This document shows, piece by piece, positions 6,957 to 28,560 of a stretch of DNA of 29,847 bases. The translations under genes and the position numbers were made by a program. This DNA comes from Candidatus Eremiobacteraceae bacterium (GTDB lineage Bacteria; Vulcanimicrobiota; Vulcanimicrobiia; Eremiobacterales; Eremiobacteraceae). The DNA is taken from the NCBI GenBank assembly GCA_035307865.1, contig DATGHT010000321.1:1-29847 (forward strand), read 5' to 3'. The notes under the pieces are model-generated. The model made no database searches. It was given only the letters and a program-made list of their open reading frames with translations, and had not been told where the DNA came from. Position 1 is the first letter of the stretch. Each line of letters begins with the position of its first letter.

Positions 6957-8472
6957 TTATGCGGCCGCCGTCTTCGCGAAGCGCAACTTGAATTCGCCGA
7001 TCGCCGCATCGAGTTGCGCGCGCAGGTCGTCCGGTAGTTCCTTGCGATCCGCGATCGTCTTGGGAATGTCGGGATGAGCGGTTTGCAAGAATTCGTAAAA
7101 CTCGCGATGGAACTCGCGAATGCGATCGGTGGGGACATCCGCCAAGAAATCTTTGACGGCGACGTAGATCTGGATGACTTCCTGCTCCAAGCTGAGCGGC
7201 TCGAACTGCGGTTGTTTGAGGGTTTCGGTGATTTTTTCACCGCGCGACAGCTGCGCCAGCGTCACTTTGTCTAGGTCCGATGAAAGTTTGGAGAAGGCGG
7301 CCAAGTCGCGATATTGCGACAGCTCCAGCCGCAGCTGTCCGGCGACTGCCTTCATCGCTTTGGTCTGGGCTGCACCGCCGACCCGCGAAACCGAAAGCCC
7401 GACGTCGATCGCCGGCCGGATGCCGCTGTAGAACAGGCCCGTTTCGAGGTAGATCTGGCCGTCGGTGATCGAGATAAGGTTGGTGGGGATGTAGGCGGAC
7501 ACGTCGCCTTGCTGCGTCTCGATGATCGGCAAGGCAGTCATGGAGCCTGCGCCGAGCTCGTCCGAAAGCTTGGCGGCGCGCTCGAGCAAGCGTGAGTGCA
7601 AGTAGAAGATGTCGCCGATAGGCTTCGCGGCCGGGGGGCCGGCGTAAGACGAGCGATATCTCGCGATACGCCTGCGCGTGTTTCGACAGATCGTCGTAGA
7701 CGATAAGCACGTCACGACCGGCATACATGAGCTCCTGACCCATCGCGCAGCCGGCGTAGGGTGCGATGTAGCGCAAGCTCGCCGGATCGGAGGAGTCCGC
7801 GGCGACGATGGTCGTGTATTCCATCGCGCCGGCGTCGGTGAGGATCTTGTAGAGTTGCGCGACCGTGGACGTCTTTTGGCCGATCGCGACATAGATGCAT
7901 ATGACGTTTTTGCCGCGCTGGTTGATGATCGCGTCGATCGCGAGCGCGGTCTTGCCGGTTTGGCGGTCGCCGATGATCAGCTCGCGTTGACCCTTGCCGA
8001 TGGGCACGAGGCCGTCGATAGCCTTGATGCCGGTCTGCAGCGGTTGGCTCACCGCTTGGCGCTGCACGACCGTTGGGGCTTGCGTTTCAATGGGCCGCGT
8101 ACGTGTCGTGGACACCGGTCCTTTGTCGTCTAAGGGTTGACCCAAGGGGTTGACGACGCGCCCGATCACTTCGTCGCCGACCGGCACGGACACGATGTGC
8201 CCGGTGCGGCGCACGGTCGCGCCTTCCTTGATATCTTCATCCGTGCCCAACACGACCACGCCGACGTTGTCTTCTTCTAAGTTGAACGCGATGCCGAACA
8301 AGCCGTTCGGGAATTGCACCAGCTCGCCCATTTCAACAGCGCTCAGGCCGTAGACACGCGCGATCGAGTCGCCGACTTCGATGACGGTTCCAACTTCGTC
8401 TTCGCGCACCTCGGTGCGCGCGCTCTTGATCTGCTGCTTGAGAATGCCGGCGATTTCGTCTGCATTGATCAT
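6957..8472 (-). CDS. atpA: ATP synthase F1 alpha subunit, interrupted by a frameshift at about 7617
   Basis: The N-part from ATG 8472 (MINADEI...GDRQTGKT...RRPPGREAY) and the C-part ([14 protein letters not shown]...FAKTAAA*) lie in different frames. The junction reads TAT C GGC GAC where TAT CCN GGC GAC is expected. Restored length is about 505 aa. Confidence 0.93.
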
Positions 8473-9056
8473 GCTTTGTTTCCTTTTCCGTTCGTTGAGG
8501 CCGGGCCCCATGTATCGGCACTGACGAGCAAGTGCCTGCGCAATTCTTCCAGTTTTCCGGCGACGCTCGCATCCACGTAGCGATCGCCGACTTGCACGAC
8601 CAGTCCGCCGAGCAATTCCGGCTCGACCTTCTCATCCGGGATGATGGTGCGGCCGTAGACGCGCGACAACCGGCGCGCGAGTTCGGCCAGCTGCGGTGGG
8701 GTGAGCGCGATCGGTGACGCGACTTCAGCCTTTTCACGGCCGGCAGCTTCATCCAACAATTCGTGCATCTGGCGTGCGACGATCGCGAGCAGGCCTTCAC
8801 GACGCTTGCGGACGAGCAACAGCAAAAAGTTCAGCGTGAGCTCGTCGACGCGGCCGGCGAGCGTGCGCTCGAGAATCTTCATTTTGAGGCCGCGTTCGAT
8901 CACCGGCGACGCGTAGAAGTCCGCCAAGCCGGTATTATTGTCGAGCGCCGCGGCGAAGCTGTCCAGGCCCGCGGTCACGGCTGTGGCATTACCCTGTTCC
9001 AATGTCAGCGCGTACAAAGCAGCGCTATAACGGCGGGCTATGCTCTCTTTAAGCAC
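8469..9056 (-). CDS. atpH: ATP synthase F1 delta subunit
   Basis: [37 protein letters not shown] start, overlaps the atpA start. Confidence 0.93.
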
Positions 9057-9572: not shown

Positions 9573-10007
9573 TTACGCCACCTGCTCGAATCCGGTCGCT
9601 CGCTGAACCATACTGCGCGCCAGTTCGTGCACAAAAGCCTGCTGCCGTTCCACGGCTTGCGCGCGCTCAGTCGCCACGGTTGCGTGCGCCAGCTGCACAA
9701 CGGCCGCGGCTTCGTTTGCAGCGTCTCGTTCGATTGCGTGAGCCTCGTCCGACGCGCGGGCCGCCGCAGCCCGCATCACTTCGTCGGTTTGGCGGCGCGC
9801 TTCGTTGAGAGTCGCATCCGCCTGTGCTTGCAGCGCTGCCGCCTGCGCGGCGAACTCGTCGGCTGTATGGTACAGACCGGCGATGTAACGCTGGCGCTGT
9901 TCGATCGCCCGGCGGGTCGGAGCGATGAACACATACGTCAACAGCATCCAGAAGATGATGAAGTTCAGGATCTGGAATAGGAACGTGCCGTCGATCGAGA
10001 GCAGCAT
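9573..10007 (-). CDS. atpF2: ATP synthase Fo subunit b' (second peripheral stalk subunit)
   Basis: SIDGTFLFQILNFIIFWMLLTYVFIAP TM helix followed by a coiled coil. Confidence 0.85.
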   Translation of the reverse strand: MLLSIDGTFLFQILNFIIFWMLLTYVFIAPTRRAIEQRQRYIAGLYHTADEFAAQAAALQAQADATLNEARRQTDEVMRAAAARASDEAHAIERDAANEAAAVVQLAHATVATERAQAVERQQAFVHELARSMVQRATGFEQVA

Positions 10008-10020
10008 CGCTTTTTTCTAC

Positions 10021-10305
10021 TTACCGCCCAAGAATCGGCGTGAGCGCTTTCATCACGCCGAGCCCGAAACCGCCGAACAACAGGAAGAACGCGAACACGA
10101 TTGCGATGATCGGGAACGCTTCCAAGATGCCGACGCCAAGCAAATAGAAGAAGAAAATATTCGGTCGCGCTTCGGGTTGGCGCGCGATCGACTCGACTGC
10201 CTTGCTGCCGATGATGCCGTCGCCGATCGCCGACCCAAAGCCCGCAAACCCTACCATGAGCGCGAAGCCCATGATGATCGAGGCGAGTAAAACCACCTTT
10301 TCCAC
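10021..10305 (-). CDS. atpE: ATP synthase Fo subunit c
   Basis: Two TM helices, ARQPEA loop, ion-binding Glu in ILEAFP. Confidence 0.96.
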   Translation of the reverse strand: MEKVVLLASIIMGFALMVGFAGFGSAIGDGIIGSKAVESIARQPEARPNIFFFYLLGVGILEAFPIIAIVFAFFLLFGGFGLGVMKALTPILGR

Positions 10306-10317
10306 TGTGAGCTCTCC

Positions 10318-11049
10318 TTAATGATCCGAAGTTTCTTGGGTGGGAGTGATGAGATACGCGATGGTCAGGAGCGTGAAAACCAGAGCCTGGATGATGCCGA
10401 TGATCATGTTGAAAGCAAAGATTCCGAGCGGAAAAACCTTCGCAATGGTCGAGAGAAAACCCAGATGTGCGAGGATCATTGCGGAAGCGACCACCAACAG
10501 CACCTCGCCCGCAAAAATATTTCCGAACAACCGCATCGCAAGCGTCACCGGGCGAGCGAGTTCGTCGATGATGTTGATGGGGAGCATCGCGACGCCGAGA
10601 TACCACGGTTTTATGAACAGATGCTTGTAATACCCGAGTCCGTGACGGCGAATCCCGACAAGCTGGATCAGGAGAATGGTCGTGACGGCGAGCGCAGCAG
10701 TCGTATTGAGGTCGGCGGTCGGCGACTTGCCGATGAAGGGGAACAGCCCGATCTCGTTCAGGAGCAGAATGAAGACGAAGATGGAGATGACGTAGGGTAC
10801 AAATGGAGCGCCGTTTTTGCCGAGAATGCCGGTTGTCAGCTCGCTCAAGGCGCTCACGCTGAGCTCCATGATGCTATAGCGCTTCGAAACGACGGTGACC
10901 GGGTGCGTCGCCGCCAGCATGCCGACGACGGCCAACGCAAGCCCCATCGTGAGCCACGTGATGATCACCGTATCGGCGTGCACCGTGTCAAACGGCGCAG
11001 GCAGAAACTTCAGGTGCCACAGAGGATGGCTGCCGATGGTTTCCTGCAT
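10318..11049 (-). CDS. atpB: ATP synthase Fo subunit a
   Basis: PTADLNTT, PVTLAMRLFGNIFAGE (essential Arg), IQALVFTLLTIAY. Confidence 0.96.
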   Translation of the reverse strand: MQETIGSHPLWHLKFLPAPFDTVHADTVIITWLTMGLALAVVGMLAATHPVTVVSKRYSIMELSVSALSELTTGILGKNGAPFVPYVISIFVFILLLNEIGLFPFIGKSPTADLNTTAALAVTTILLIQLVGIRRHGLGYYKHLFIKPWYLGVAMLPINIIDELARPVTLAMRLFGNIFAGEVLLVVASAMILAHLGFLSTIAKVFPLGIFAFNMIIGIIQALVFTLLTIAYLITPTQETSDH

Positions 11050-11058
11050 TGTTCCCTT

Positions 11059-11478
11059 TTACGCGCTTGTCTTCGTCGCCGGCGTTGTGACCGCAGTCGC
11101 CGGGGCGTAGCTCGCCTGGATTTGTTTCCGATAGGTGAGAATCGCCACTCCTAGCGGTGCGACAAATCCGGCAAGATATGTGAAGTAGCCGAGCGCCGGT
11201 CCATGCCGAAGAATGAGAAAAGGCAAGGAGCCCGCGAGCAATACTCGCACGAGCGATTCGAGCGTCAAGAACGGCAAGTAGCGTTTACCGCTTTTCGCCA
11301 GCCGGTTGAAGCTTGCAGCGATGTGGAAAAGGTACGCGACTCCCACCACGCCGCCACCGAATAGGGCCAGCGCCGGAACCTTCAGATTGCCGAAAATCGC
11401 AAGTGCTGCGGCCGCGACGACGATCAAGCCAAGGCTGCGCAATGCGACCGCTTGTTGGAACATGCGGACCGTTTCCAT
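11059..11478 (-). CDS. atpI: ATP synthase protein I (membrane accessory protein)
   Basis: Hydrophobic 139-aa protein with about four TM segments, directly upstream of atpB. Confidence 0.7.
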   Translation of the reverse strand: METVRMFQQAVALRSLGLIVVAAAALAIFGNLKVPALALFGGGVVGVAYLFHIAASFNRLAKSGKRYLPFLTLESLVRVLLAGSLPFLILRHGPALGYFTYLAGFVAPLGVAILTYRKQIQASYAPATAVTTPATKTSA

Positions 11479-19647: not shown

Positions 19648-19679
19648 AAAAAAAGGAGCGGCCCACAACGAGCCGCTCC
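19648..19679 (-). terminator. Rho-independent terminator of the TonB-dependent receptor gene
   Basis: GGAGCGGC-TCGTTGTGG-GCCGCTCC-TTTTTTT, 38 nt after the stop codon. Confidence 0.9.
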
Positions 19680-19717: not shown

Positions 19718-22573
19718 TTAGAACCGTCGAATGAAGAAGAACTCGAACAGCCGCGCGTCCTGCGACACCTTTTGGTTGATGAAGCTGCACGAAGGAACTC
19801 CCGGGCTTCCTAGACCGACGCAGCCAGGCGTGGAAGGAGTTGCGTGAACGCCGGACAGGGGGCCGTTAAACGGGAAACACCCGGTACCGTTGTTGTCGAC
19901 TTGACAAGGGGTCGTTCCCTGTAGATTGTTCGTCAGGTTCGTGCCACGAATACCGACGGTGAAGTTGCCGTGATCGAAGTCCTTTGACACCGTCGTGTTG
20001 ACGACGAAATAGCCGCTGCCTTTGCCCTCGTTTTGTGATATCTGCGTTCCTGCCGGGTTCAGCACCGCGATATTGTAGAACGAATCGAAGGAGTAATAGA
20101 CGAGCGGCAACACGCGGAATCCGTTGCTGTGCAAATCCGCCAAGAACGTGCCCGCGAAGAGCGGCACGAGACCTTGGCGCACGTAGACGCCTTGATTCAC
20201 GAGTGTGGATGGCAAGGGGAAGTTGTAGTAACCCGAGTTCCCGCTGGTTGCCGTGGTCCAGTAATTATCGTACGAACCGGAAAGCCAGACCGAGGCTCCG
20301 GTTGGTCGCTGATCGAGATGGCTAAATCCGAGCTCGACGCCCGCCGCGCGTATCTTCAGACCGTTGGTCGGCACGTCTTCTTTTGAAAAGATCGGATTGC
20401 CGCTCGAGTCAAACCCAAGGATCGGATTGTATTCCTCAAAGTAGTTGTCGGTGTGGCGGATCCACGGTCCGATCCGCAACGAGGTGTTGGGCGCGAACTG
20501 ATGCTCCCACATCAAATCGGCATTGTGATTGATCTGCGGCGCGACTGCCGCGCCGGGAGCGAAGGGGTTGTAGAAGGTCGGGACGGTGTGGTTCGAACTC
20601 ATGCGCCAGACATAGGCCGTGCCGACGAACGCAGCAGTGTCTCCCCAGGAGAAGCGCACGACGTTGTTCTCGTTGACGCGATACGTGCCGGCCACCGTCG
20701 GAATCCACGACCCAACCGAGATGGACTTTGCGTTCCTGAAGTCCGTCGAATTCGGGATGGCTGGTATCCCATACCACTCGCGCTGATATCTGAGGCCGGG
20801 CTCGATCGTGAAGTGTCCGCTGTTGACCGAAGCTTGTGCGTACACGTAAGGGATGTGCGTGGGGATGTCCGTCAGCGCGCCGTAAAATGCACGGCCCGGC
20901 CAAGCACCGGTGTTAGGATTGAAGCTTGACAAATTTCGGATATCGCGGAAGTTCTGATCGTATTCCTGTCCGATGCCGGCTTTCAACGTGAGGTTCGCGG
21001 TGGGAGTGTCAGTGTAATCCATCGCGGCGATATACATTCGCGAGTTGCGGTCTTGGTAGTAGTCGCCGGAGTCGTGCGTGCAGGTTGAGCCGCCCGGCGT
21101 GATCGGGAGCGGCGCTCCCGCCTTGTAAGGAAGAGGCGGACAGCCGGCCGGGAGCGGCGGTTCGACGCTGCCCGGATTGTTCGGATCGGTGAGCACTTGA
21201 TCGAAGAGGTACTGATTGAAATTCTCCGCTAAGCGAAACGCGATGCTGGCATGATCGCCGATGACTCGATTCCATTGAATCTTGCCTAGGCCGCCGTAGT
21301 GCCTCGTTGCAACCCCATCACCGTTCGCTAACGATTTGAAATACAGACCACCGGGACACGGTTGCCCGTTGGGCGCGATGCCGCCCATCCCGAAGGTTCC
21401 AAATGTATCGGATGGATCGGGTAAGGCCCCCGGGCAGGGAGCCAATTTTAGCAGCGGCGCTCCGGCCGTACCCGTGTTGAGCAAGTAGCTATTGTTTTGA
21501 TCGTACAGGCTGTTTTCGACCATGATCTGGATGTCGTCTTTGCCGGAGGGCCGGTAGTGAAAGTTGCCGACCAAATCGCGCGTGTTGACCGGTCCTGCAT
21601 TGGTCGAACTGACGCCGCCCGGACCATACACGACGTTCGGGTAGGTGTTTTCGCCGTAGTTGTATTGGTTGTCGGAGAGGACGCCGCCGAATGCCATGTA
21701 GTAGGAGAAGCGATTGTCAGGCGTAGCTCCCCCGTACTCGAGTCCGATCTTGTGATTGAAAGTCGGGCTCGTGAAACCAAATGCGACCGAACCGAATGCC
21801 GGATACCGTCCGGCTTTGACCACAGAATTGATGATACCGGTGCCGTTCGCCGCTGCGCCGGCGTTCAATCCACCGGTGTAGACTTCGAGATTGCCGATGC
21901 CGACATTCGAAAGATTGCTGGTGAAAAAACCGAGGATCCGTTCTGCGATCGGAATGCCGTCGTATTCGTAGCCGTTGTCCGTGTCCTGACCGCCGCGAAT
22001 CGACGGTTCGCTCGGAAAAGCGCCGCCGATGGGAGCGAGCCCTGGAACGGTCGCCGTGTATTCGTACAGCGTTTTATGGAGATCGTCGCCGCCGGACGCT
22101 GCCGCGAGTTGGGTGCCATTGATGTTGTACACGTCCGTGCCGGTGTGCGGCTGAACTAGATTCGAGGAGGCTCGAACCGGTACTCGCCCTAGCGTGCGAA
22201 CCGTCTTGGTCAGTTTGCGATCGACGACGCTCGTTTGGTCTTGGTTGACGTTGACGCCGACGGTCGAGTCAAGCTCGTAGCCCGTAAGGGAGAACGAGAC
22301 CGTATACGTATCGGGATTCAGCGCCTGGACTGAGTAAAATCCCGCCCGGTTCGTATAAGCGGTTTGCGTGCCGCTGCCGGACGTCGCGGTGACTTTTACG
22401 CCCTGCAACGGCGCGCCGGTCTCCGAGTCGGTAACCGTCCCCGTGATCGTTCCGGTCGTCCCCGCCATGACGAGAGACGGCGTGAACGATAGCACGGAAA
22501 GCGCGGCGGCCACAACTGCAACGAATAGCAAACGTTGCCGCTGCACCATCACAGCGCCAAAAAATTGACTCAT
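19718..22573 (-). CDS. TonB-dependent outer-membrane receptor with N-terminal carboxypeptidase-regulatory-like domain
   Basis: Start at ATG 22573 (GAGGAG upstream). Signal peptide, GTITGTVTD...Y.VSFSLTGY domain, plug motifs (VPGL, SIRGG, YEYDGIPI, GIINSVVKAG), aromatic-rich beta strands and a C-terminal Phe. Confidence 0.88.
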   Translation of the reverse strand: MSQFFGAVMVQRQRLLFVAVVAAALSVLSFTPSLVMAGTTGTITGTVTDSETGAPLQGVKVTATSGSGTQTAYTNRAGFYSVQALNPDTYTVSFSLTGYELDSTVGVNVNQDQTSVVDRKLTKTVRTLGRVPVRASSNLVQPHTGTDVYNINGTQLAAASGGDDLHKTLYEYTATVPGLAPIGGAFPSEPSIRGGQDTDNGYEYDGIPIAERILGFFTSNLSNVGIGNLEVYTGGLNAGAAANGTGIINSVVKAGRYPAFGSVAFGFTSPTFNHKIGLEYGGATPDNRFSYYMAFGGVLSDNQYNYGENTYPNVVYGPGGVSSTNAGPVNTRDLVGNFHYRPSGKDDIQIMVENSLYDQNNSYLLNTGTAGAPLLKLAPCPGALPDPSDTFGTFGMGGIAPNGQPCPGGLYFKSLANGDGVATRHYGGLGKIQWNRVIGDHASIAFRLAENFNQYLFDQVLTDPNNPGSVEPPLPAGCPPLPYKAGAPLPITPGGSTCTHDSGDYYQDRNSRMYIAAMDYTDTPTANLTLKAGIGQEYDQNFRDIRNLSSFNPNTGAWPGRAFYGALTDIPTHIPYVYAQASVNSGHFTIEPGLRYQREWYGIPAIPNSTDFRNAKSISVGSWIPTVAGTYRVNENNVVRFSWGDTAAFVGTAYVWRMSSNHTVPTFYNPFAPGAAVAPQINHNADLMWEHQFAPNTSLRIGPWIRHTDNYFEEYNPILGFDSSGNPIFSKEDVPTNGLKIRAAGVELGFSHLDQRPTGASVWLSGSYDNYWTTATSGNSGYYNFPLPSTLVNQGVYVRQGLVPLFAGTFLADLHSNGFRVLPLVYYSFDSFYNIAVLNPAGTQISQNEGKGSGYFVVNTTVSKDFDHGNFTVGIRGTNLTNNLQGTTPCQVDNNGTGCFPFNGPLSGVHATPSTPGCVGLGSPGVPSCSFINQKVSQDARLFEFFFIRRF

Positions 22574-22671
22574 GGTTCTCTCCTCTAACCCAACGAACCG
22601 GACGATACACCCAAATCGGGTTTCCAAGTTGCCCCGCGGTGCGCTAGTCCAACTCATTGGCTCCAGCCCCT

Positions 22672-22700
22672 GTGACGTCCATCATTTACCGTGCTATAGC
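22672..22700 (+). promoter_or_regulatory. Candidate sigma70 promoter for the epimerase operon
   Basis: GTGACG-17 nt-TATAGC with an extended -10 TG (TGCTATAGC). Confidence 0.35.
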
Positions 22701-22737
22701 CGCGCCCTGCGCCACTGCTCCAGAGAGGCCGGCAATA

Positions 22738-22753
22738 CTGCAAAAAGTTGCAG
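22738..22753. promoter_or_regulatory. Perfect inverted repeat, candidate operator
   Basis: CTGCAA-AAAG-TTGCAG in the divergent intergenic region. Confidence 0.35.
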
Positions 22754-22899
22754 AATTGAACGGCCCTCGTTAGGACCGGTTCGTCCGGCTGTTCTGCTCG
22801 CGCGCGCGGAATAGGCAGCTCTTATCACCGCGAGCCGAGGACTTCAGGGGCGGCGACCTAATCGCGTCGGGTATGGTGGGTTCGACCCAAGAGGGCACG

Positions 22900-23907
22900 G
22901 TGGAGTTAACGACCGAGCCGCTTACCTTGCATCTGCGTCATACGTTTAGGATCGCGCGCTCGTCTGAAGACAGTGCACAGACCCTGCTCGTCCGCTTACG
23001 CGTGGACGGTTTTGAAGCGCTCGGTGAATCCTCGCCGATCACGCGCTACGATGAGACGATAGAACGGGTCGCGCAAGAGCTAGGGCGCATCGATGTGTCG
23101 CGCATGGATTTTTGGGCGTTCGATCACGTGCTCGACGCGTTGCCGCAGCGCGAGCCGGGGGCGCGCTGCGGGCTCGATCTTGCATTGCACGACCTCGCCG
23201 GCAAGCGCCTCGGCGTCCCGATCTATCAATTGCTGGGACTCAACCCGCTGGATGCGAAGAAGACGTCGTTCACCATCGGCATCGCGCCGCTCGAGCAAAC
23301 CGTGGAGAAGACACGCGAGGCCCGGCAGCTCCCGATTCTCAAGGTCAAACTTGGCAGGGGAAGTGAGGTGGAAACGCTCGAGGCGGTTCGTTCCGTGTAC
23401 AGCGGCACCATTCGGCTGGACGCGAACGAGGGCTGGACCGCCGAACAGGCGGTGCACATGCTGAAAGAGCTCCGCCGTTTCGATATCGAGTTCTGCGAGC
23501 AGCCGATTCCGGCAGGCCATCCGGAGCAGTTGCGTTTCGTTCGCGAACATTCACCCATTCCTATCATCGTCGATGAGGATTGCCGGCGCTTGGAAGATGT
23601 AGCGCCGCTGCATGGTTGCGTCGACGGCATCAACATCAAATTGGTCAAATGCGGGGGCATGCGTGAGGCGATCCGGATGATCCACGCGGCGCGCGCCTTG
23701 CGCATGAAAGTGATGATCGGTTGCATGATCGAGTCGTCGCTGCTGTGCACTGCGGCGGCTCATTTGACGCCGCTCACCGACTACGCGGATGTCGACGGAC
23801 CGCTGCTCATCACCGACGATCCCTTCGTGGGCGTCGAATACGAGAACGGACGGCTGCGCTTACCACCTGGACCCGGGCTGGGGGTCACACCGCGGCGCAC
23901 GCCGTAG
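22900..23907 (+). CDS. Enolase-superfamily dipeptide epimerase (L-Ala-D/L-Glu epimerase / DgcA-like)
   Basis: Likely GTG start at 22900 (GAGGG upstream; ATG 22873 is an alternative). FRIAR, LKVKLG (KxK), DANEGW, EQP, DED, NIKLVKCGG, GCMIES, DVDG. Confidence 0.9.
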   Translation: MELTTEPLTLHLRHTFRIARSSEDSAQTLLVRLRVDGFEALGESSPITRYDETIERVAQELGRIDVSRMDFWAFDHVLDALPQREPGARCGLDLALHDLAGKRLGVPIYQLLGLNPLDAKKTSFTIGIAPLEQTVEKTREARQLPILKVKLGRGSEVETLEAVRSVYSGTIRLDANEGWTAEQAVHMLKELRRFDIEFCEQPIPAGHPEQLRFVREHSPIPIIVDEDCRRLEDVAPLHGCVDGINIKLVKCGGMREAIRMIHAARALRMKVMIGCMIESSLLCTAAAHLTPLTDYADVDGPLLITDDPFVGVEYENGRLRLPPGPGLGVTPRRTP

Positions 23908-23919
23908 TGTTGCCGCATC

Positions 23920-25011
23920 ATGCAGGAGCGCACGCCCCGCCGCTACGTCATCGTAACGGATGGTTACCTGTTGAATCGCCACGCGAAGACCGCACACGGC
24001 ATGTTGCGTTATACAGAAGATGAGATCGTCGCCGTGATCGACGGCGGCTACGCGGGCAAGGATGTGGCGGACGTGCTGCCGGCGCTCCATCGCAGCGCAC
24101 CGATCGTCGCCTCGGTCAAGGAGGCGCTGCCCTTCGCGCCGACATCCCTCTTAGTGGGAGTGGCTACGGCAGGAGGCATCTTGCCGCCGCAATTTCGTGC
24201 CCACGTGTTGGACGCCATCGATGCGGGCCTGGAGATCGTGAGCGGCTTGCACCAGCTGCTGCGCGACGACCCCGAATTCGTCACGCGCGCACAAAAAAGC
24301 GGCGCACGCTTCTGGGATGTGCGGTTGCCGCCCACATCGATACCGCTTTTTTCCGGTGCAGCATACCGCGTGCCGCAGGTCGTCGCGCTTGCGGTCGGGA
24401 GCGATTGCGCAGTCGGCAAGAAATCCGTCATGATCGAGTTGCAACGGGCGGCGGTTGCAGCGGGCGATCGCGCTGAATTCGTGGCGACCGGCCAGACCGG
24501 CGTCATGATCAGCGGCAAGGGTATCGTCGTCGACCGCGTCATTTCAGATTTTGTTTCCGGCGCCGCCGAACAGCTCGTCCTCGGCGTGAGCGCCGATGCG
24601 CGCTATGCGCTCGTCGAAGGCCAAGGCAGCATTCTGCACCCGGCCTATGGCGCAGTCACTCTCGGCTTGCTCTACGGCAGCGCGCCCGACGTGCTCGTGC
24701 TGTGTCACGAGTGCGGACGCGAGCTCGTCGAAGATTTCGATGTCAAGATCCCCGACCTGAACGCACTGCGCCGCATGCACGAGTCGCTGCTGGCGCCGAT
24801 CAAACCCGCCGCTTGCGTCGCGGTCGCGCTCAACACGCAGCGGCTCAACGAGGCACAGGCTCGGGAAGCCATCGCCGCAGCCCAACGCGATACGGACCTT
24901 CCCGCTGACGACGTCGTGCGCTTTGGCGGCGCGCGTTTGTGGACGGCCGTGCGTGCAGCGGCAACGCAAACAGCGAAAGCGCGGGCGCACGCGCAGCCCT
25001 TGCAAGCATGA
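23920..25011 (+). CDS. DUF1611-family protein (DgcN-like D-glutamate N-acetyltransferase)
   Basis: AKTAHG, IVSGLH, GSDCAVGK, ATGQTG, VEGQGS, LLYGSAPD. Typical partner of dipeptide epimerases. Confidence 0.85.
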   Translation: MQERTPRRYVIVTDGYLLNRHAKTAHGMLRYTEDEIVAVIDGGYAGKDVADVLPALHRSAPIVASVKEALPFAPTSLLVGVATAGGILPPQFRAHVLDAIDAGLEIVSGLHQLLRDDPEFVTRAQKSGARFWDVRLPPTSIPLFSGAAYRVPQVVALAVGSDCAVGKKSVMIELQRAAVAAGDRAEFVATGQTGVMISGKGIVVDRVISDFVSGAAEQLVLGVSADARYALVEGQGSILHPAYGAVTLGLLYGSAPDVLVLCHECGRELVEDFDVKIPDLNALRRMHESLLAPIKPAACVAVALNTQRLNEAQAREAIAAAQRDTDLPADDVVRFGGARLWTAVRAAATQTAKARAHAQPLQA

Positions 25012-26639
25012 ACGCACGTCTCCGAATGCTCGCCTGTTTGCTGTGCGTCGCCGCAGCAAGTTCCGCGTGTACGAAAGTCAGCATGGAATCCTCACATGGA
25101 GGCGTTGCCGCCCGCAACAGCTGGACGATCTCCGGCGTGCTGCGCAGCGCCATCAGCGAGGAGCCCAACACCCTGGTGCGCATATTCTCAAACCAAGCTT
25201 CCGCCGACGACGTGACTGCGCTGCTCTTCGAACCCTTTTTCCGCTACGACGAGCGCGAACGGCCCGTGCCCGCCCTCGCCATGAAATTCCCGACGCCGCA
25301 GAACGGCCTCATCAGCAAAGACGGCCTTCGCATCACCTTCGACTTGCGTCCGAATGCCCGCTGGTCGGACGGCGTTCCCGTGACCGCAAACGATGTGATC
25401 TTCACCTGGCACGCGATCGTCGATGGCAACAACCCCGTCGTCTCGACAGCCGGGTTTGACAAGATCAAGACGATCATCGCCGAAAATCCGCATCGCGTCA
25501 CGCTCGTGTTGAAAGCGCCCTACAGCCCGCTCGTGTACCTGTTCTCAGAAGGATCGTTCCCGCCGCTGCCCGAGCACATTCTGCGCGGCTACAAGACATT
25601 GAACAACATCACGTACGACGCGGCGCCGATCGGGGATGGGCCCTTCAAGCTGAAGCAATGGCTGCATGGCTCCGATCTCATCTTCGTTCCGAACGAACTG
25701 TATTGGCGCGGGCCCGCGCATCTGCGCGAGCTCGACATCAAGATCATCCCCAACGCCAACACGCAGCTCAACGCACTGCGCACGCATGAGATCGACCTCG
25801 TCGACGGCGTTTCGAAACCGCTCGCAGGCGAGTTGCACGCGATTCCCGGGATAAACATCGTGACCCAGCTGCAGGCGAACTATCGGCACCTGGATTTCAA
25901 TCTCAAGAATCCGATCTTGCGCGATGCGCGCGTGCGGCGAGCCATCGCACAGAGCATCGATGTACCCAAGATTCTCCAGGACGTCTACGCGGGCGAGGGC
26001 GTCGTCGCATCGACCGACATTCCGCCGTTTTCCTGGGCCGCGAGCCCGCTGCCGCCCATTCCGTACGACCCCGCGGGCGCGGCCCAGTTGCTCGACGCGG
26101 CGGGTTGGAAGATGGGCCCTGACGGCATCCGCGTCAAAGACGGCCAGCGGCTCGCGCTGGCGATTTCCAGCGCAACCGACAACCGGCCGAATGCAAATGC
26201 GGAAGCGCTGGTCGCACAGGAACTGAAGTCCATCGGCATCGATCTCAGCATAAAGAACTATGCCGGGGCCGTTTTGTTCCTCGAACACGGTCCGCTCTAC
26301 GGCGGCAAATACGACATGTCATGGATCATCAACACCGAAGGCACCGATCCGGACTCGCTCGCCAATTGGGGCTGTCACTACTGGCCCCCCAACGGAGCGA
26401 ATACTGACTTTTACTGCAACCCGAAAGTCGATGCATATATGGAAGACGCGGAGCTGCACTACGATCAAACGCGGCGCCGCGACGACTACGCGCAAGCCTG
26501 GAAGATCATGCTGGCCGAAGTGCCGTCCGTGATCATCTACTGGGATCGTATCATCATCGCCGCCAACTCTGACCTCCGCAACTTGAAACCTTCGCCGGTC
26601 ATCACTGACTACTGGAATGCTTGGGAATGGACAATCTAG
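25008..26639 (+). CDS. Peptide ABC transporter substrate-binding lipoprotein (family 5, OppA/DppA-like)
   Basis: ATGA overlap with the upstream stop. Lipobox SSA-C; ARWSDGVPVTANDVIFTW, PIGDGPFKL, VRRAIAQSID, LLDAAGW. Confidence 0.92.
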   Translation: MNARLRMLACLLCVAAASSACTKVSMESSHGGVAARNSWTISGVLRSAISEEPNTLVRIFSNQASADDVTALLFEPFFRYDERERPVPALAMKFPTPQNGLISKDGLRITFDLRPNARWSDGVPVTANDVIFTWHAIVDGNNPVVSTAGFDKIKTIIAENPHRVTLVLKAPYSPLVYLFSEGSFPPLPEHILRGYKTLNNITYDAAPIGDGPFKLKQWLHGSDLIFVPNELYWRGPAHLRELDIKIIPNANTQLNALRTHEIDLVDGVSKPLAGELHAIPGINIVTQLQANYRHLDFNLKNPILRDARVRRAIAQSIDVPKILQDVYAGEGVVASTDIPPFSWAASPLPPIPYDPAGAAQLLDAAGWKMGPDGIRVKDGQRLALAISSATDNRPNANAEALVAQELKSIGIDLSIKNYAGAVLFLEHGPLYGGKYDMSWIINTEGTDPDSLANWGCHYWPPNGANTDFYCNPKVDAYMEDAELHYDQTRRRDDYAQAWKIMLAEVPSVIIYWDRIIIAANSDLRNLKPSPVITDYWNAWEWTI

Positions 26640-27694
26640 GCCGTGTGCTTTTGTCGGGCGCGCTGTGCGCTCTTGCGTCTATGTCGATAGCGTCCGCCGA
26701 AGCGGATTCGACGAATCCGCGGCTATGGGTGGCGCGCTTTCCGCAGCCCGTCACGAGTGATTACGTCTCGCCGGTACGAGAGGTGCCTGGCGGTTTTGCC
26801 ACCGCGGTCGTCTCGTGGAACGCGCACACGCCGGGCGGTTCGTGGCTCGACGTCCAGCTGCGCGCGCGCATCGCCGGGCGCTGGACAGCATGGTACGACA
26901 TGGGTCGTTGGAGCGCAGACTATACGTCAGGCTTCCGGCGGTCCGTGGCCAAGCAAACCGATGCCGACGGCAATGTCGATACCGACACGCTGCACTTGAA
27001 AAATGTGGCGAACGGATTGCAAGTGCAAGCGCTGTTGCATGCCGGACCCGGAGGTGCGACGCCCCTGTTGTCGCTCGTCGCCGTGACGACCGACACCGCG
27101 CAAGAAAGTCCGGCGGCGGACGTTGCTTGGGGCGAGGACATCGACGTGCCGCAGCGCACCCAGCATGTAGAGGAATCTCCGAATGGCCTCGGCGGCGGCG
27201 GCGAGGCATGGTGCAGTCCGACGAGCGTTTCAATGGTGATGGGATATTGGGCGGCGCTCTTGCATCATCCGGAGTGGGATGCAGACGTGCCGAGCTCTGC
27301 AAAAGGAACGTACGACCCCGTGTACGACGGCTGCGGCAACTGGCCGTTCAACGTCGCGTACGCGTCCGAACACGGTCTCGCCGGCTGGGTCGAGCGTCTC
27401 GCGAGCCTCAGCGATGTCGAGCCTTACATCGCGCGCGGCGTGCCGGTGATCGCCAGCATCAAGGTAGCGCGCGGTGAGATGCAGGGCACGCCCTATGAAA
27501 GCACCGATGGCCACCTGTTGGTCGTGCGCGGTTTCACGCCGCAGGGAGACGTCATCGTCAACGATCCGGCCGGCCGGCCGGGTGCGATTCGCCGCGTCTA
27601 TCGCCGCGACCAATTCACGCATGCCTGGCAACATGGGTCGGGCGGCATCGTCTACATCATCGGTCCGCCGGCGCTGTTGCAGCAACTCCGCTAG
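26627..27694 (+). CDS. Secreted C39-like cysteine peptidase with N-terminal beta-rich domain
   Basis: Sec signal ending ASAEA. WCSPTSVSMV (Cys), DGHLLVVRGF (His), VNDP (Asp). Confidence 0.82.
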   Translation: MDNLGRVLLSGALCALASMSIASAEADSTNPRLWVARFPQPVTSDYVSPVREVPGGFATAVVSWNAHTPGGSWLDVQLRARIAGRWTAWYDMGRWSADYTSGFRRSVAKQTDADGNVDTDTLHLKNVANGLQVQALLHAGPGGATPLLSLVAVTTDTAQESPAADVAWGEDIDVPQRTQHVEESPNGLGGGGEAWCSPTSVSMVMGYWAALLHHPEWDADVPSSAKGTYDPVYDGCGNWPFNVAYASEHGLAGWVERLASLSDVEPYIARGVPVIASIKVARGEMQGTPYESTDGHLLVVRGFTPQGDVIVNDPAGRPGAIRRVYRRDQFTHAWQHGSGGIVYIIGPPALLQQLR

Positions 27695-28560
27695 GCGGGT
27701 TCGGCGCCAAGCCCGCGGCGCGCAACTTCCATGTTGATGATCAGCCGCGGCAAGACATCGATGAACGCGTGGTTTGCGCGGCGCAATTCCTCACGCTTCA
27801 CGCCTTCGATACCGTTTCGCTCGAGCAAGTCATCGCTTAAGATGAACCGATGGGGCAGCGCCCGGGCCTCCTCGAAGGCGGCTGCGCGAATTTCTTCCGC
27901 CGCCGCCGCATAGCGCGGGTCCGCCACCCAGCTCTTACAATCTTTCCACCACACTTCGAGCCAGTCCGGGTAGGCTGCGATCGCGCGGTACTCGCTGCTC
28001 ACAAAGGCCGACCCGAATGTCGCTTTCATCTCTTCGTGGACGGCACGGACGCGCGGCGGCCAGTCGCGTTCTTCGGCTAGCAGCAAGGGGGTCGCGCGAA
28101 ACTCTTTCACGCCGTGGCCGTAGTGGTGATCGTGGGCCGGGCCGGCTGTGCCCGTTCCGTTGATGGCTTCGCCGCGCAATGCCAATTCGACCGCCGCAGC
28201 GATGATGAGCACCTTGGGATTGGCGAGCCGGAAGAGATCGACGATCTCCCGCATGCGCCGCAGCTCCGGTGGCCCGATCGCGCGCGCCCGCAGCAGCGCG
28301 GCGTGATCGCGCACGGTAAAGCTGCTGACCGTCCGTTCGGCGATCGTTCCGATCTCGAGCGCTTGGTGGCCGAATTGCGCGGTCAGCACGCTGGGGCGCA
28401 ACCGGCGCCACGCGATCTCTAAAAACTTCGGCGTGGCAGCGTAAGCTTGGAAGAGCAAACTGACGACGGGCACGCGCAGCGAATTCTTGATCTCGCGGAA
28501 TGCCTCGCGCACACCGTCGTCGGTCGCATCGGCTTCCTTCACCAGCGGAATCATCTGCAT
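27691..28560 (-). CDS. DehI-family (group I alpha-haloacid dehalogenase-like) protein
   Basis: Two-fold internal repeat (IKNSLRVPVVSLLFQAYAATPKFLEIAWRRL / MKATFGSAFVSSEYRAIAAYPDWLEVWWKDC). LRVP, AWRR and NPK motifs match DehI as I recall it; size 289 aa. Confidence 0.78.
   Translation of the reverse strand: MQMIPLVKEADATDDGVREAFREIKNSLRVPVVSLLFQAYAATPKFLEIAWRRLRPSVLTAQFGHQALEIGTIAERTVSSFTVRDHAALLRARAIGPPELRRMREIVDLFRLANPKVLIIAAAVELALRGEAINGTGTAGPAHDHHYGHGVKEFRATPLLLAEERDWPPRVRAVHEEMKATFGSAFVSSEYRAIAAYPDWLEVWWKDCKSWVADPRYAAAAEEIRAAAFEEARALPHRFILSDDLLERNGIEGVKREELRRANHAFIDVLPRLIINMEVARRGLGAEPA

What the first reader, a model, noticed from the sequence alone, without database searches (positions are those of the whole stretch)
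19718..27694. Candidate undescribed D-amino-acid peptide / muropeptide scavenging system: TBDR + epimerase + DUF1611 + OppA + C39-like peptidase
Seen: a four-gene plus-strand operon with overlapping or near-abutting genes shares a ~300-nt divergent region with a large TonB-dependent receptor. Known: Ala-Glu epimerases act in peptidoglycan-peptide recycling (B. subtilis ykfABC beside dpp; E. coli ycjG-mpaA-mppA), and DUF1611 plus epimerase form the DgcN/DgcA D-glutamate route. Inference: outer-membrane uptake, periplasmic trimming by the C39-like enzyme, capture by the lipoprotein, then cytoplasmic acetylation and racemisation of D-Glu-containing products. I do not know this five-part combination from a characterised locus.
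Basis: partly seen in the sequence, partly recalled or inferred. Interest (0 to 1): 0.72.

Follow-up and report, generated by a model that had tools for sequence, protein, structure and literature searches.

The report
Cell-wall peptide salvage operon, Eremiobacterota
A soil bacterium of the uncultured phylum Eremiobacterota carries a tightly packed four-gene operon, next to an outer-membrane receptor gene, that most likely captures D-glutamate-containing cell-wall peptides, cuts them and converts the D-glutamate to the usable L-form; it is a new, untested variant of known salvage routes.

Summary
All five genes are at the stated coordinates. The plus-strand genes are separated by a 12-nt gap, an ATGA overlap and a 13-nt overlap, and 299 nt separate them from the divergent receptor gene.

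The four genes are epimerase, DUF1611, orphan family-5 binding lipoprotein and C39-like cysteine peptidase. They keep this order across three families and 24 genera of class Eremiobacteria. I did not find the four together outside the phylum. The epimerase-DUF1611 pair alone recurs in many phyla.

The receptor gene is not a constant neighbour. It is recurrent, though, and its clade alternates between this position and a second conserved cluster: DAP-decarboxylase-like, S13 DD-peptidase, SIS, receptor, OppB, OppC, SBP. That ties it independently to peptide and cell-wall metabolism.

The epimerase is nearer to the characterised Bacteroides L-Xaa-D-Glu dipeptide epimerase than to DgcA. Both it and the DUF1611 protein score below the NCBIfam DgcA and DgcN cut-offs.

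The peptidase has a signal peptide here, but not in the sister family.

Annotated but uncharacterised loci in Sphingomonadales and Haloferax combine the same pair with receptors, transporters and D-peptide hydrolases.

Verdict: a new variant of murein-peptide / D-glutamate salvage. Every substrate is inferred. The scan has flagged the same operon type on other DNA.

The parts
19718..22573 (-). TonB-dependent-receptor-like outer-membrane protein, 951 aa. It has a signal peptide, a CarboxypepD_reg domain, a weak Plug, a beta-barrel and a C-terminal Phe. It is an accessory, patchily linked uptake component.
   Evidence: Pfam results are, the start codon and the translation. Full-length homologs form a distinct subfamily. 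Members of that clade lie either divergent to this operon or inside DAPdc-S13-SIS-receptor-OppB-OppC-SBP clusters.
19655..19679 (-). Terminator-like hairpin with an 11-bp stem (8 G-C pairs) followed by a T-run. It lies 39 nt after the receptor gene's stop, which suggests a monocistronic receptor transcript.
   Evidence: Consensus scan. This is a pattern match only.
22574..22872 (.). 299-nt divergent intergenic region between the receptor gene and the operon. It holds an AT-rich 11-nt inverted repeat at 22733-22758.
   Evidence: The repeat is neither conserved in related loci nor enriched in the genome, so no operator is claimed.
22873..23907 (+). Enolase-superfamily epimerase or racemase for an N-acyl-D-glutamate (L-Ala-D/L-Glu-type dipeptide or N-acetyl-D-Glu), 344 aa.
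   Evidence: MR_MLE_N/C. The best solved relative is 3IJI, the Bacteroides thetaiotaomicron dipeptide epimerase, at 248.6 bits. NCBIfam DgcA scores 242 bits, below the 400 cut-off. KxK, the second Lys, the D-E-D metal ligands and DxD are all present.
23920..25011 (+). DUF1611 protein, a DgcN-like putative D-glutamate N-acyltransferase, 363 aa.
   Evidence: PF17396 + PF07755. NCBIfam DgcN scores 249 bits, below the 480 cut-off. PDB relatives are 2obn, 2g0t and 7xrj. It is 31-33% identical to PGAP-annotated DgcN and shares GxDxxxGK and 20 other invariant residues.
25008..26639 (+). Orphan family-5 (peptide/nickel type) substrate-binding lipoprotein, 543 aa.
   Evidence: PF00496 at 263.7 bits. 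The lipobox Cys is conserved in orthologs. The nearest solved relative is B. subtilis AppA, only E = 3.9e-40. No equivalog cut-off is met. No permease or ATPase gene lies in the locus.
26627..27694 (+). Two-domain cysteine peptidase or amidase, 355 aa. It has a Sec-type signal peptide in this family, a beta-jelly-roll domain (about residues 30-165) and a C39-fold catalytic domain (about 170-350).
   Evidence: PF13529 at 82.9 bits. Q179, C196 and H296 are invariant and D313 is kept in at least 90% of 63 homologs. The AF2 model has pLDDT 93.3. Best fold matches are Z 13.4 to 6mpz, 13.1 to 3erv and 12.9 to PeiR 8z4h. The N-domain is a generic jelly roll, Z 9.5. Signal peptides are compared.

Best explanation
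This is a salvage operon for D-glutamate-containing peptides. The most likely substrates are peptidoglycan stem peptides such as L-Ala-gamma-D-Glu-mDAP, coming from the cell's own wall turnover and from bacterial remains in soil.

**Proposed route (every step inferred)**
1. In this genome a receptor-like outer-membrane protein takes the fragments into the periplasm.
2. The lipoprotein SBP binds the peptide and hands it to a shared Opp-type permease and ATPase encoded elsewhere.
3. The C39-like cysteine peptidase cuts the peptide. It probably does the job that MpaA or YkfC does elsewhere, releasing L-Ala-D-Glu or free D-Glu. It is exported in this family and cytoplasmic in the sister family.
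4. In the cytoplasm the DUF1611 protein N-acylates free D-Glu, as DgcN does.
5. The epimerase inverts the glutamate centre of the N-acyl-D-Glu, whether that is a dipeptide or N-acetyl-D-Glu. The products are L-Ala-L-Glu or N-acetyl-L-Glu, which general dipeptidases or the arginine pathway can use.

**Shown here:** gene content, operon conservation, catalytic residues, folds, lipobox and signal peptides, and the genomic associations.

**Inferred:** every substrate and the order of the steps.
For: **1. Operon unit**
- The genes are joined by a 12-nt gap, an ATGA overlap and a 13-nt overlap.
- The same order is found across three families and 24 genera and in about 17 more Eremiobacterota-type contigs.
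- In family f3 the SBP is replaced by an MFS transporter plus a GNAT. The epimerase, DUF1611 and C39 genes stay together.

**2. Chemistry of the pair**
- The epimerase has all the catalytic and DxD residues of dipeptide epimerases.
- It is closest to the characterised B. thetaiotaomicron enzyme, 3IJI.
- DUF1611 shares its invariant residues with annotated DgcN.
- The pair is adjacent in either order in Actinomycetota, Chloroflexota, Obscuribacteraceae and Polarisedimenticolia.

**3. D-peptide context elsewhere**
- Haloferax pHV4: DUF1611, epimerase, D-aminoacylase, SBP5, permeases.
- Three sphingomonad genera: beta-lactamase-fold hydrolase, epimerase, a peptide MFS transporter (in two of the three genera), TonB receptor, DUF1611, hypothetical protein. 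Most continue with a second serine hydrolase, followed by an M19 dipeptidase in Sphingobium and an amidohydrolase in Croceicoccus.
- A second Eremiobacterota DUF1611 paralog lies with a receptor, a beta-lactamase-fold hydrolase, an SBP5 and an M81 peptidase.
- Murein-type analogues: Bacteroides C40 peptidase with epimerase, and Deinococcus SBP, permeases, M20, NlpC/P60, epimerase.

**4. Peptidase**
- The Q-C-H(-D) set is conserved.
- The C39 fold is nearest to the LahT C39 domain (6mpz), a B. anthracis C39-like protein and the pseudomurein endoisopeptidase PeiR.
- PF13529 domains occur in phage endolysins.
- No M14 (MpaA) or S66 (LdcA) match above cut-off in five genomes, four of them 97-98% complete.

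**5. Transport**
- One oppDF pair and 1-3 OppB-type permeases serve 10-17 SBP5 genes per genome.

**6. Receptor**
- It lies divergent to the operon in the window, G028, G030, G015, G019, G004, G007 and L056-L058.
- The same clade lies elsewhere inside DAPdc-S13-SIS-receptor-unknown-OppB-OppC-SBP5.
- The two contexts interleave on the receptor tree, with support 0.99-1.0.

**7. Not a D-Glu synthesis route**
- murI is present in all five genomes searched, so the pair is not needed to make D-Glu.
Against: - No enzyme, binding or expression data exist for any of these proteins.
- The pair scores well below the DgcA and DgcN equivalog cut-offs. Nothing in the sequence separates a dipeptide substrate from an N-acetyl-D-Glu substrate, because DxD is also kept in annotated DgcA.
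- Three distant homologs of the C39-like protein outside the phylum sit in unrelated contexts. Its link to the pathway therefore rests on one phylum, where the whole region is syntenic: the xylose-isomerase-like gene and aspS also stay nearby.
- The peptidase changes compartment between sister families. That is awkward for a fixed step order.
- The SBP has no close characterised relative.
- The receptor is absent beside the operon in most relatives. Its Plug domain is below threshold.
- In Chloroflexota and allied lineages the pair has no recurrent partner gene.
Confidence: 0.5

Rival explanations
1. The substrate is D-glutamate, or another acidic D-amino acid, from sources other than peptidoglycan. 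Examples are poly-gamma-glutamate and other D-amino-acid peptides in soil organic matter. On this reading the C39-like enzyme is a gamma-glutamyl or D-peptide hydrolase, the SBP takes up the oligomers, and the pair performs the DgcN/DgcA 'irreversible racemisation' of free D-Glu.
For: - The best NCBIfam hits of the pair are DgcA and DgcN.
- The pair stands alone in many phyla.
- It sits with general D-peptide hydrolases rather than murein enzymes in sphingomonads, Haloferax and L046, and next to a DAO-family oxidase in L049.
- The papain-fold relatives include the gamma-glutamyl-acting Alr0975.
Against: - The receptor clade's other home contains an S13 DD-peptidase, a DAP-decarboxylase-like gene and a SIS amino-sugar-type isomerase. 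These point to cell-wall fragments.
- The epimerase is nearer to the murein-context Bacteroides enzyme than to DgcA: 41% against 32-34% identity.
- The operon is a core gene set of the class, 60 of 61 genomes. That fits recycling of the cell's own wall.
Confidence: 0.2
2. The functional unit is only the four-gene operon. The receptor gene is an incidental neighbour that landed in a variable, insertion-prone spot between the xylose-isomerase-like gene and the epimerase.
For: - Most relatives have no receptor there.
- Within one genus, the site holds a 71% ortholog (G028), a 33% paralog (G030) or nothing (G002).
- In G010 the 72% ortholog is on a different contig.
- The receptor gene ends in its own terminator-like hairpin.
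- These genomes carry tens of receptor-like genes.
Against: - At least two receptor clades occupy the same divergent position in several genera of the window's own family and in more distant Eremiobacterota contigs. That is far more than expected if only about 1% of genes are of this kind; that estimate is my own and does not correct for shared ancestry.
- The window's clade is otherwise tied to OppBC, SBP5 and S13 genes.
- Sphingomonads place a receptor gene inside an epimerase/DUF1611 operon, and L046 places one divergently beside a DUF1611 locus.
Confidence: 0.25
3. The gene order is inherited synteny without a shared pathway. The C39-like protein would be a cell-wall remodelling or other housekeeping hydrolase, and the SBP one of many general peptide binders. 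Neither would be tied to the epimerase/DUF1611 pair.
For: - The whole neighbourhood (pfkB, xylose-isomerase-like gene, DehI-like gene, aspS) is syntenic across the class.
- C39-like homologs elsewhere sit in unrelated contexts.
- The pair functions without these partners in other phyla.
Against: - Insertions occur between the blocks of the neighbourhood but almost never inside the four-gene block.
- Start and stop codons overlap in this family.
- When the SBP is lost in f3, another transporter takes its place and the C39 gene stays next to DUF1611.
Confidence: 0.1

Closest known systems
E. coli ycjG-mpaA-mppA and B. subtilis dpp/ykfABCD murein-peptide recycling clusters (established knowledge, recalled from memory). 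Annotated analogues were seen here in Bacteroides (C40 peptidase with epimerase) and Deinococcus (SBP, permeases, M20, NlpC/P60, epimerase).
   Same: - A family-5 peptide-binding protein, a peptidase and an L-Ala-D/L-Glu-type enolase-superfamily epimerase are encoded together.
- The SBP can be an orphan that borrows Opp, as MppA does.
- The epimerase has all the defining residues and is closest to the characterised Bacteroides enzyme.
   Different: - The peptidase is a C39_2-fold cysteine enzyme with a jelly-roll domain, not M14 (MpaA) or NlpC/P60 (YkfC).
- A DUF1611 gene is present.
- No LdcA or M14 match was found in five genomes.
- A receptor-like outer-membrane gene lies alongside.
DgcN-DgcA(-DgcH) D-glutamate catabolic pathway. 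Reference: Yu et al. 2023, ISME J 17:537, as listed in the reference lists of PMC13759103 and PMC12363236. The paper itself is not held in the library and I did not read it.
   Same: A DUF1611 protein and an enolase-superfamily racemase are encoded side by side. The invariant DUF1611 residues are shared. DgcA and DgcN are the best-scoring NCBIfam models for the pair.
   Different: - The scores are about half the equivalog cut-offs.
- Identity to annotated DgcA and DgcN is 31-34%.
- The epimerase falls in a different clade from proteobacterial DgcA.
- Annotated dgcN-dgcA loci are followed by a D-amino-acid transaminase, not by an SBP and a peptidase.
Annotated but uncharacterised sphingomonad plasmid operons (Sphingobium, Novosphingobium, Croceicoccus) and the Haloferax volcanii pHV4 locus.
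   Same: They combine an epimerase and DUF1611 with an uptake component (TonB-dependent receptor, peptide MFS transporter or SBP5-ABC) and with peptide hydrolases.
   Different: - The hydrolases differ: beta-lactamase fold, M19 and D-aminoacylase rather than C39-like.
- The epimerase belongs to the DgcA-side clade.
- The receptor gene lies inside the operon rather than divergent to it.
RagAB / SusCD-type TonB-dependent peptide import (recalled from memory, not tested here).
   Same: An outer-membrane receptor with an N-terminal carboxypeptidase-regulatory-like domain is linked to peptide use.
   Different: No SusD- or RagB-like partner was identified beside the window's receptor. Inner-membrane uptake would go through SBP/Opp.

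Membership tests
DgcA, N-acetyl-D-Glu racemase (NCBIfam NF042940) | Score at or above the curated equivalog cut-off of 400 bits | tested here: not met
   242 bits. Identity to PGAP-annotated DgcA of Ruegeria and Vibrio is 32-34%.
DgcA, N-acetyl-D-Glu racemase (NCBIfam NF042940) | Encoded next to a DgcN-type DUF1611 gene | tested here: met
   A 12-nt gap separates it from the DUF1611 gene. The pairing is conserved in many phyla.
DgcN, D-Glu N-acetyltransferase (NCBIfam NF041892) | Score at or above the curated cut-off of 480 bits | tested here: not met
   249 bits.
DgcN / DUF1611 (PF07755 + PF17396) | Both Pfam domains present, with conserved P-loop-like GxDxxxGK and other invariant residues | tested here: met
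   216 and 97 bits. 26 residues are invariant across 12 proteins, including two annotated DgcN.
DgcN / DgcA pathway | Acetyl-CoA-dependent acetylation of D-Glu and racemisation of N-acetyl-D-Glu | not testable with these tools
   This needs enzyme assays.
Dipeptide (L-Ala-D/L-Glu) epimerases, enolase superfamily | KxK motif, second catalytic Lys, D-E-D metal ligands, and the DxD motif at the end of strand 8 | tested here: met
   KVK 157-159, the NIKLVK Lys, D183, E209, D234 and DVD 306-308 align with 3IJI and 1JPD. DxD is also present in annotated DgcA, so it does not discriminate between the two.
Dipeptide (L-Ala-D/L-Glu) epimerases, enolase superfamily | NCBIfam equivalog cut-offs: NF011708 at 343 bits and NF041118 at 500 bits | tested here: not met
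   142.5 and 131.2 bits. The closest solved relative is the Bacteroides enzyme 3IJI at 248.6 bits.
TonB-dependent receptor | Plug domain (PF07715) | tested here: inconclusive
   E = 0.065, 14.2 bits against a cut-off of 23.9, but at the expected position, residues 168-237.
TonB-dependent receptor | Large C-terminal beta-barrel with a terminal aromatic residue, plus an N-terminal signal peptide | tested here: met
   OMP_b-brl_3 at 31.9 bits, above the 27-bit cut-off. The protein is 951 aa and ends in ...RRF. The signal peptide is visible.
TonB-dependent receptor | TonB box, and ExbBD/TonB genes in the genome | not tested
   Not searched.
Family-5 (cluster C) peptide/nickel substrate-binding proteins | PF00496 domain plus an export or lipoprotein signal | tested here: met
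   263.7 bits. The lipobox Cys is conserved in 11 of 11 orthologs.
MppA / OppA / DppA / NikA equivalogs | NCBIfam equivalog cut-offs | tested here: not met
   The best is NikA at 149 bits against a cut-off of 393. OppA scores 62 against 947.
Peptidase_C39_2 (PF13529), papain-fold clan CA | Domain score above cut-off, a conserved Gln-Cys-His(-Asp) set, and a C39 fold | tested here: met
   82.9 bits against a cut-off of 24. Q179, C196 and H296 are invariant and D313 is kept in at least 90% of sequences. Z 13.4, rmsd 2.1 Å over 137 residues, to 6mpz.
True C39 bacteriocin-processing peptidases (PCAT) | An N-terminal domain of an ABC exporter that cleaves double-glycine leader peptides | tested here: not met
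   This is a stand-alone 355-aa protein with a signal peptide and a jelly-roll domain. No ABC exporter gene lies in the locus.
Murein tripeptide amidase function (MpaA / YkfC analogue) | Hydrolysis of the gamma-D-Glu-mDAP bond | not testable with these tools
   The only support is context, plus the lack of M14 and S66 matches in five genomes.

The most novel reading that the evidence does not exclude
The jelly-roll + C39_2 proteins would be a previously unrecognised family of murein-peptide amidases that functionally replace MpaA/YkfC. The linked receptor clade would be a dedicated outer-membrane importer of peptidoglycan fragments. That importer would feed a genomically split Opp system: oppBC next to the receptor gene, oppDF elsewhere, and many orphan SBPs. 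Together these would give Eremiobacterota a specialised route for feeding on bacterial cell-wall remains in soil.
Probability: 0.3. Interest if true: 0.65.

Novelty: new variant of a known kind. Interest (0 to 1): 0.5.

Why it matters
Eremiobacterota are abundant, almost wholly uncultured soil bacteria, and little is known about what they eat. Peptidoglycan is a large pool of carbon and nitrogen in dead microbial biomass, and D-glutamate is its hardest residue to reuse.

If the reading is correct, a class-wide core operon joins several parts that have not been characterised together:
- a DgcN/DgcA-like or AEE-like stereo-inversion pair;
- an orphan binding protein;
- a new type of cysteine peptidase;
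- in some lineages, an outer-membrane receptor.

This would give concrete, testable candidates for a new murein-peptide amidase family and for receptor-mediated uptake of cell-wall fragments. It would also broaden the known range of the DUF1611/epimerase chemistry beyond marine Proteobacteria and haloarchaea. If the substrates prove different, the locus is still a clean entry point to the function of DUF1611 outside the Dgc pathway.

Tried and rejected
- **Expression data.** No RNA holder is listed among public runs. Only soil and mine metagenome DNA runs hold the stretch, so I did not lay any reads.
- **Operator.** An AT-rich 11-nt inverted repeat lies at 22733-22758 in the divergent region. 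It is absent from all related loci. It is not enriched in the genome: 11 hits against 14 for the reversed control. I dropped it.
- **DxD motif as a discriminator.** I tried it to tell dipeptide epimerases from N-acetyl-D-Glu racemases. Annotated DgcA keeps DLD, so it gives no discrimination.
- **Context of distant C39-like homologs.** The three I looked up sit in unrelated neighbourhoods, one of them within a nuo (NADH dehydrogenase) cluster. Cluster names were uninformative.
- **Neighbour tally around the pair in Chloroflexota and allies.** No recurrent partner appeared. The only repeated family was a DNA methylase, which reflects synteny. The corresponding tallies for Actinomycetota and for the groups lacking an adjacent epimerase were prepared but not run.
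- **Literature.**
  - 'DUF1611' gives two irrelevant papers.
  - Searches for DgcN/DgcA and N-acetyl-D-glutamate found only secondary mentions.
  - The primary paper, PMC10030869, is not held.
  - No paper found links Eremiobacterota to this operon.
  - No paper found describes a TonB-dependent muropeptide importer.
- **N-terminal domain of the peptidase.** The best match is Z 9.5 to a phage baseplate protein, then generic lectin, CBM and P-domain jelly rolls. I draw no function from it.
- **D-Glu synthesis.** I considered whether the pair might make D-Glu for the wall. murI is present in all five genomes searched, so I rejected this.
- **Link between oppDF and the receptor cluster.** oppDF lies alone between dxs and topA, near murI. 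The tblastn run found nothing there.
- **Failed script.** One script call returned no answer. I repeated it.

Full report
**What is there**

The window is one contig of a 1.78-Mb, 384-contig, 79%-complete metagenome-assembled genome. Close homologs carry Candidatus Eremiobacterota names, and the DNA is held by soil metagenome runs.

All five genes sit at the stated coordinates:
- A 951-aa receptor-like outer-membrane protein on the minus strand, 19718-22573. Its real start is most likely the ATG at 22573, behind GAGGAGA. A terminator-like hairpin lies just after its stop.
- A 299-nt divergent spacer.
- Four plus-strand genes:
  - an MR/MLE epimerase, 22873-23907;
  - a DUF1611 protein, 23920-25011;
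  - a family-5 binding protein, 25008-26639;
  - a Peptidase_C39_2-like protein, 26627-27694.

The junctions are a 12-nt gap, an ATGA overlap and a 13-nt overlap. One caveat: the receptor's Plug domain is below threshold, at E = 0.065. The regulatory-like N-domain and a barrel family do pass.

**Is the association conserved?**

The C39-like gene has a match in 60 of 61 genomes of the class, 23 of 24 genera. That tally includes three unpublished genomes, G001, G008 and G011. No other claim here rests on them.

In 20 fetched neighbourhoods, 18 show epimerase-DUF1611-SBP-C39 in the same order:
- Family f3 (G045) has epimerase-MFS-GNAT-DUF1611-C39 instead.
- One genome has the C39 gene 5 kb away.

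Five more relatives show the same order. So do about 17 contigs from a species-level genome collection. A few of those carry other bin labels but have the same flanking synteny.

Outside the phylum I found only the pair. The epimerase lies upstream of DUF1611 in Actinomycetota. It lies downstream in Chloroflexota, Limnocylindrales, Obscuribacteraceae and Polarisedimenticolia. There is no adjacent epimerase in Gemmatimonadota, Poribacteria or Armatimonadota. In the Chloroflexota group the pair has no recurrent partner. Three distant homologs of the C39-like protein sit in unrelated contexts.

So the four-gene block is a lineage-specific elaboration of a widespread two-gene module.

**The pair**

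The epimerase has the KxK motif, the second lysine, the three metal ligands and the DxD motif, all aligned with solved dipeptide epimerases. Its best solved relative is 3IJI, the Bacteroides thetaiotaomicron enzyme, at 248.6 bits. From memory, that enzyme is active on L-Xaa-D-Glu dipeptides. I could not check this here.

Its NCBIfam scores all fall below cut-off:

| Model | Score (bits) | Cut-off (bits) |
|---|---|---|
| DgcA | 242 | 400 |
| E. coli-type AEE | 142 | 343 |

To compare it with bona fide sequences I took PGAP-annotated loci from plasmid records. The epimerase is 41% identical to the Bacteroides enzyme, which sits next to a C40 peptidase. It is 32-34% identical to annotated DgcA. 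On a tree it groups with the DUF1611-linked epimerases of Actinomycetota and Chloroflexota and with the Bacteroides enzyme, apart from the proteobacterial DgcA clade.

DxD is kept in DgcA as well, so sequence alone cannot decide between a dipeptide and N-acetyl-D-Glu.

The DUF1611 protein scores 249 bits against a cut-off of 480 for DgcN. It is 31-33% identical to annotated DgcN and shares 26 invariant residues, among them GxDxxxGK.

murI is present in all five genomes searched. The pair is therefore not needed to make D-Glu, which points to salvage or catabolism.

**The binding protein**

Eleven of eleven orthologs checked keep a signal peptide ending in Cys, so it is a lipoprotein. It has no close characterised relative.

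The five genomes searched each have 10-17 SBP_bac_5 genes, but only one oppDF pair and 1-3 OppB-type permeases. An SBP without local permease genes is therefore normal here. It must dock on a shared transporter, as MppA does on Opp in E. coli (recalled from memory).

**The peptidase**

Among 63 homologs, Q179, C196 and H296 are invariant and D313 nearly so. A high-confidence model (pLDDT 93.3) shows two domains:
- An N-terminal beta-sandwich. Modelled alone (pLDDT 92.7), it matches only generic jelly rolls, best Z 9.5.
- A C-terminal C39 fold. The best matches are Z 13.4 to the LahT peptidase domain, 13.1 to a B. anthracis C39-like protein and 12.9 to the pseudomurein endoisopeptidase PeiR.

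PF13529 domains are listed among phage endolysin catalytic domains. This fits a cell-wall peptide substrate but does not prove one.

The window's protein, and orthologs in its family, begin with a Sec-type signal or a hydrophobic segment. Orthologs in the sister family start about 25 residues before the first conserved motif and have no such segment. 'Periplasmic trimming' may hold in this genome, but it is not a conserved property of the system.

I found no S66 (LdcA) match and no M14 (MpaA) match above cut-off in five genomes, four of them 97-98% complete. Each has one or two NlpC/P60 genes, all elsewhere. That leaves room for the C39-like enzyme to be the murein-peptide amidase.

**The receptor**

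Most relatives have none beside the operon. A full-length homolog does lie divergent to the epimerase in the window, G028, G030, G015, G019, G004 and G007, and in three more distant contigs, L056-L058.

Full-length homologs form a small subfamily among the tens of receptor-like genes per genome. When a member is not next to the operon, it lies in a second conserved cluster:
- DAP-decarboxylase-like, S13 DD-peptidase, SIS protein, receptor, unknown protein, OppB, OppC, SBP5 in G035, G039 and G048; G056 shows the same order as far as the unknown protein.
- A partial form of the same cluster in G032.
- DAP-decarboxylase-like gene, receptor, S13 in G010.

On a tree the two contexts interleave within one clade, with support 0.99-1.0. 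A second clade is found only beside the operon.

Three sphingomonad genera have a TonB-dependent receptor gene between an epimerase and a DUF1611 gene. Beta-lactamase-fold hydrolases flank that operon, and an M19 dipeptidase (Sphingobium) or an amidohydrolase (Croceicoccus) follows. A second DUF1611 paralog in another Eremiobacterota genome sits with a receptor, an XRE-cupin regulator, a beta-lactamase-fold hydrolase, an SBP5 and an M81 peptidase.

I read the receptor as an accessory, exchangeable uptake module that is functionally tied to peptide or cell-wall scavenging. I do not read it as a fixed fifth part.

**Best reading and alternatives**

The operon most resembles the murein-peptide clusters of E. 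coli (ycjG-mpaA-mppA) and B. subtilis (dpp/ykf), and the annotated Deinococcus and Bacteroides versions. It differs in two ways. A C39-fold enzyme stands where an M14 or NlpC/P60 enzyme would be. A DgcN-like protein is added, which would deal with free D-Glu.

My confidence in each reading is below. The second and third alternatives concern only part of the system.

| Reading | Confidence |
|---|---|
| Salvage of D-Glu-containing cell-wall peptides | about 0.5 |
| Same enzymes acting on non-murein D-Glu sources such as poly-gamma-glutamate or other D-peptides | about 0.2 |
| The receptor is incidental | about 0.25 |
| The block is synteny without a shared pathway | about 0.1 |

All substrates are inferred, and no expression data could be found.

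**Novelty**

The DgcN/DgcA pair and the AEE-based murein recycling route are known. The four-gene combination, the C39-like partner and the receptor clade's two contexts are not described in the papers I could search. First-stage notes of this scan flagged the same operon type on other DNA.

I class it as a new variant of a known kind, of moderate interest.

Noticed in passing
window 6957-8511 (-): The ATP synthase alpha subunit is split over two overlapping frames: 7237-8511 holds the N-terminal part and 6957-7892 the C-terminal part. This is a frameshift. It may be a real mutation or an assembly error in this MAG.
   Followed up: no
L144 (G035), L146 (G056), L147 (G039), L148 (G048), L149 (G032), L142 (G010): A conserved co-directional cluster: DAP-decarboxylase-like, S13 DD-peptidase, SIS protein, receptor, unknown 466-491-aa protein, OppB, OppC, SBP5. 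It looks like an uncharacterised outer-plus-inner-membrane import system for cell-wall fragments. The unknown protein has no Pfam match.
   Followed up: partly
L152 (G037:C1:1980000-1992000); also G040, G005, G020 by coordinates: The only oppD-oppF ATPase pair of these genomes lies 3-4 kb from murI in all four, by coordinates. In G037, the one case I annotated, it stands without permease genes between dxs and topA. The matching oppBC genes lie elsewhere, next to the receptor in some genomes, so this ABC importer is genomically split.
   Followed up: partly
L127, L128, L129 (Sphingobium, Novosphingobium and Croceicoccus plasmids): A shared operon core, preceded by an XRE regulator gene in two of the three: beta-lactamase-fold hydrolase, dipeptide epimerase, a peptide MFS transporter (in two of the three), TonB-dependent receptor, DUF1611, hypothetical protein (no Pfam match). 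Sphingobium and Croceicoccus continue with a second serine hydrolase, then an M19 dipeptidase and an amidohydrolase respectively. It looks like a D-amino-acid peptide catabolic system, and I know of no characterisation.
   Followed up: partly
L046 6099-15748 (another Eremiobacterota chromosome): A second DUF1611 paralog, 62% identical to the window's, has no adjacent epimerase. It sits between a divergent receptor gene (whose Plug domain passes), an XRE-cupin regulator, and a convergent gene set of beta-lactamase-fold hydrolase, SBP5 and an M81 (MlrC-like) peptidase.
   Followed up: partly
L033 5092-10409 (G045, family f3): Here the SBP gene of the operon is replaced by an MFS transporter and a GNAT acetyltransferase. 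The order is epimerase, MFS, GNAT, DUF1611, C39-like.
   Followed up: partly
window 27691-28560 (-): A DehI-like (haloacid dehalogenase family PF10778) gene converges on the C39-like gene, and their 3' ends overlap by 4 nt. It is kept next to the operon in the window's family but was not found at this position in the sister family.
   Followed up: no
window 9965-11154: A stretch of lower G+C (0.565) and strong AT skew lies just upstream of the atp operon. Its ORFs have no Pfam match. It is where atpB and atpE would be expected.
   Followed up: no
L049 8838-11059: In another Eremiobacterota genome a DUF1611 gene lies directly after a DAO-family FAD oxidoreductase gene. This is another D-amino-acid-type context.
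   Followed up: no
L130 (Burkholderia sp. FERM BP-3421 plasmid p1): Here DUF1611 sits between two ATP-grasp genes and next to a phytanoyl-CoA dioxygenase-family gene. That looks biosynthetic rather than catabolic, so the DUF1611 family is probably not limited to D-Glu catabolism.
   Followed up: no
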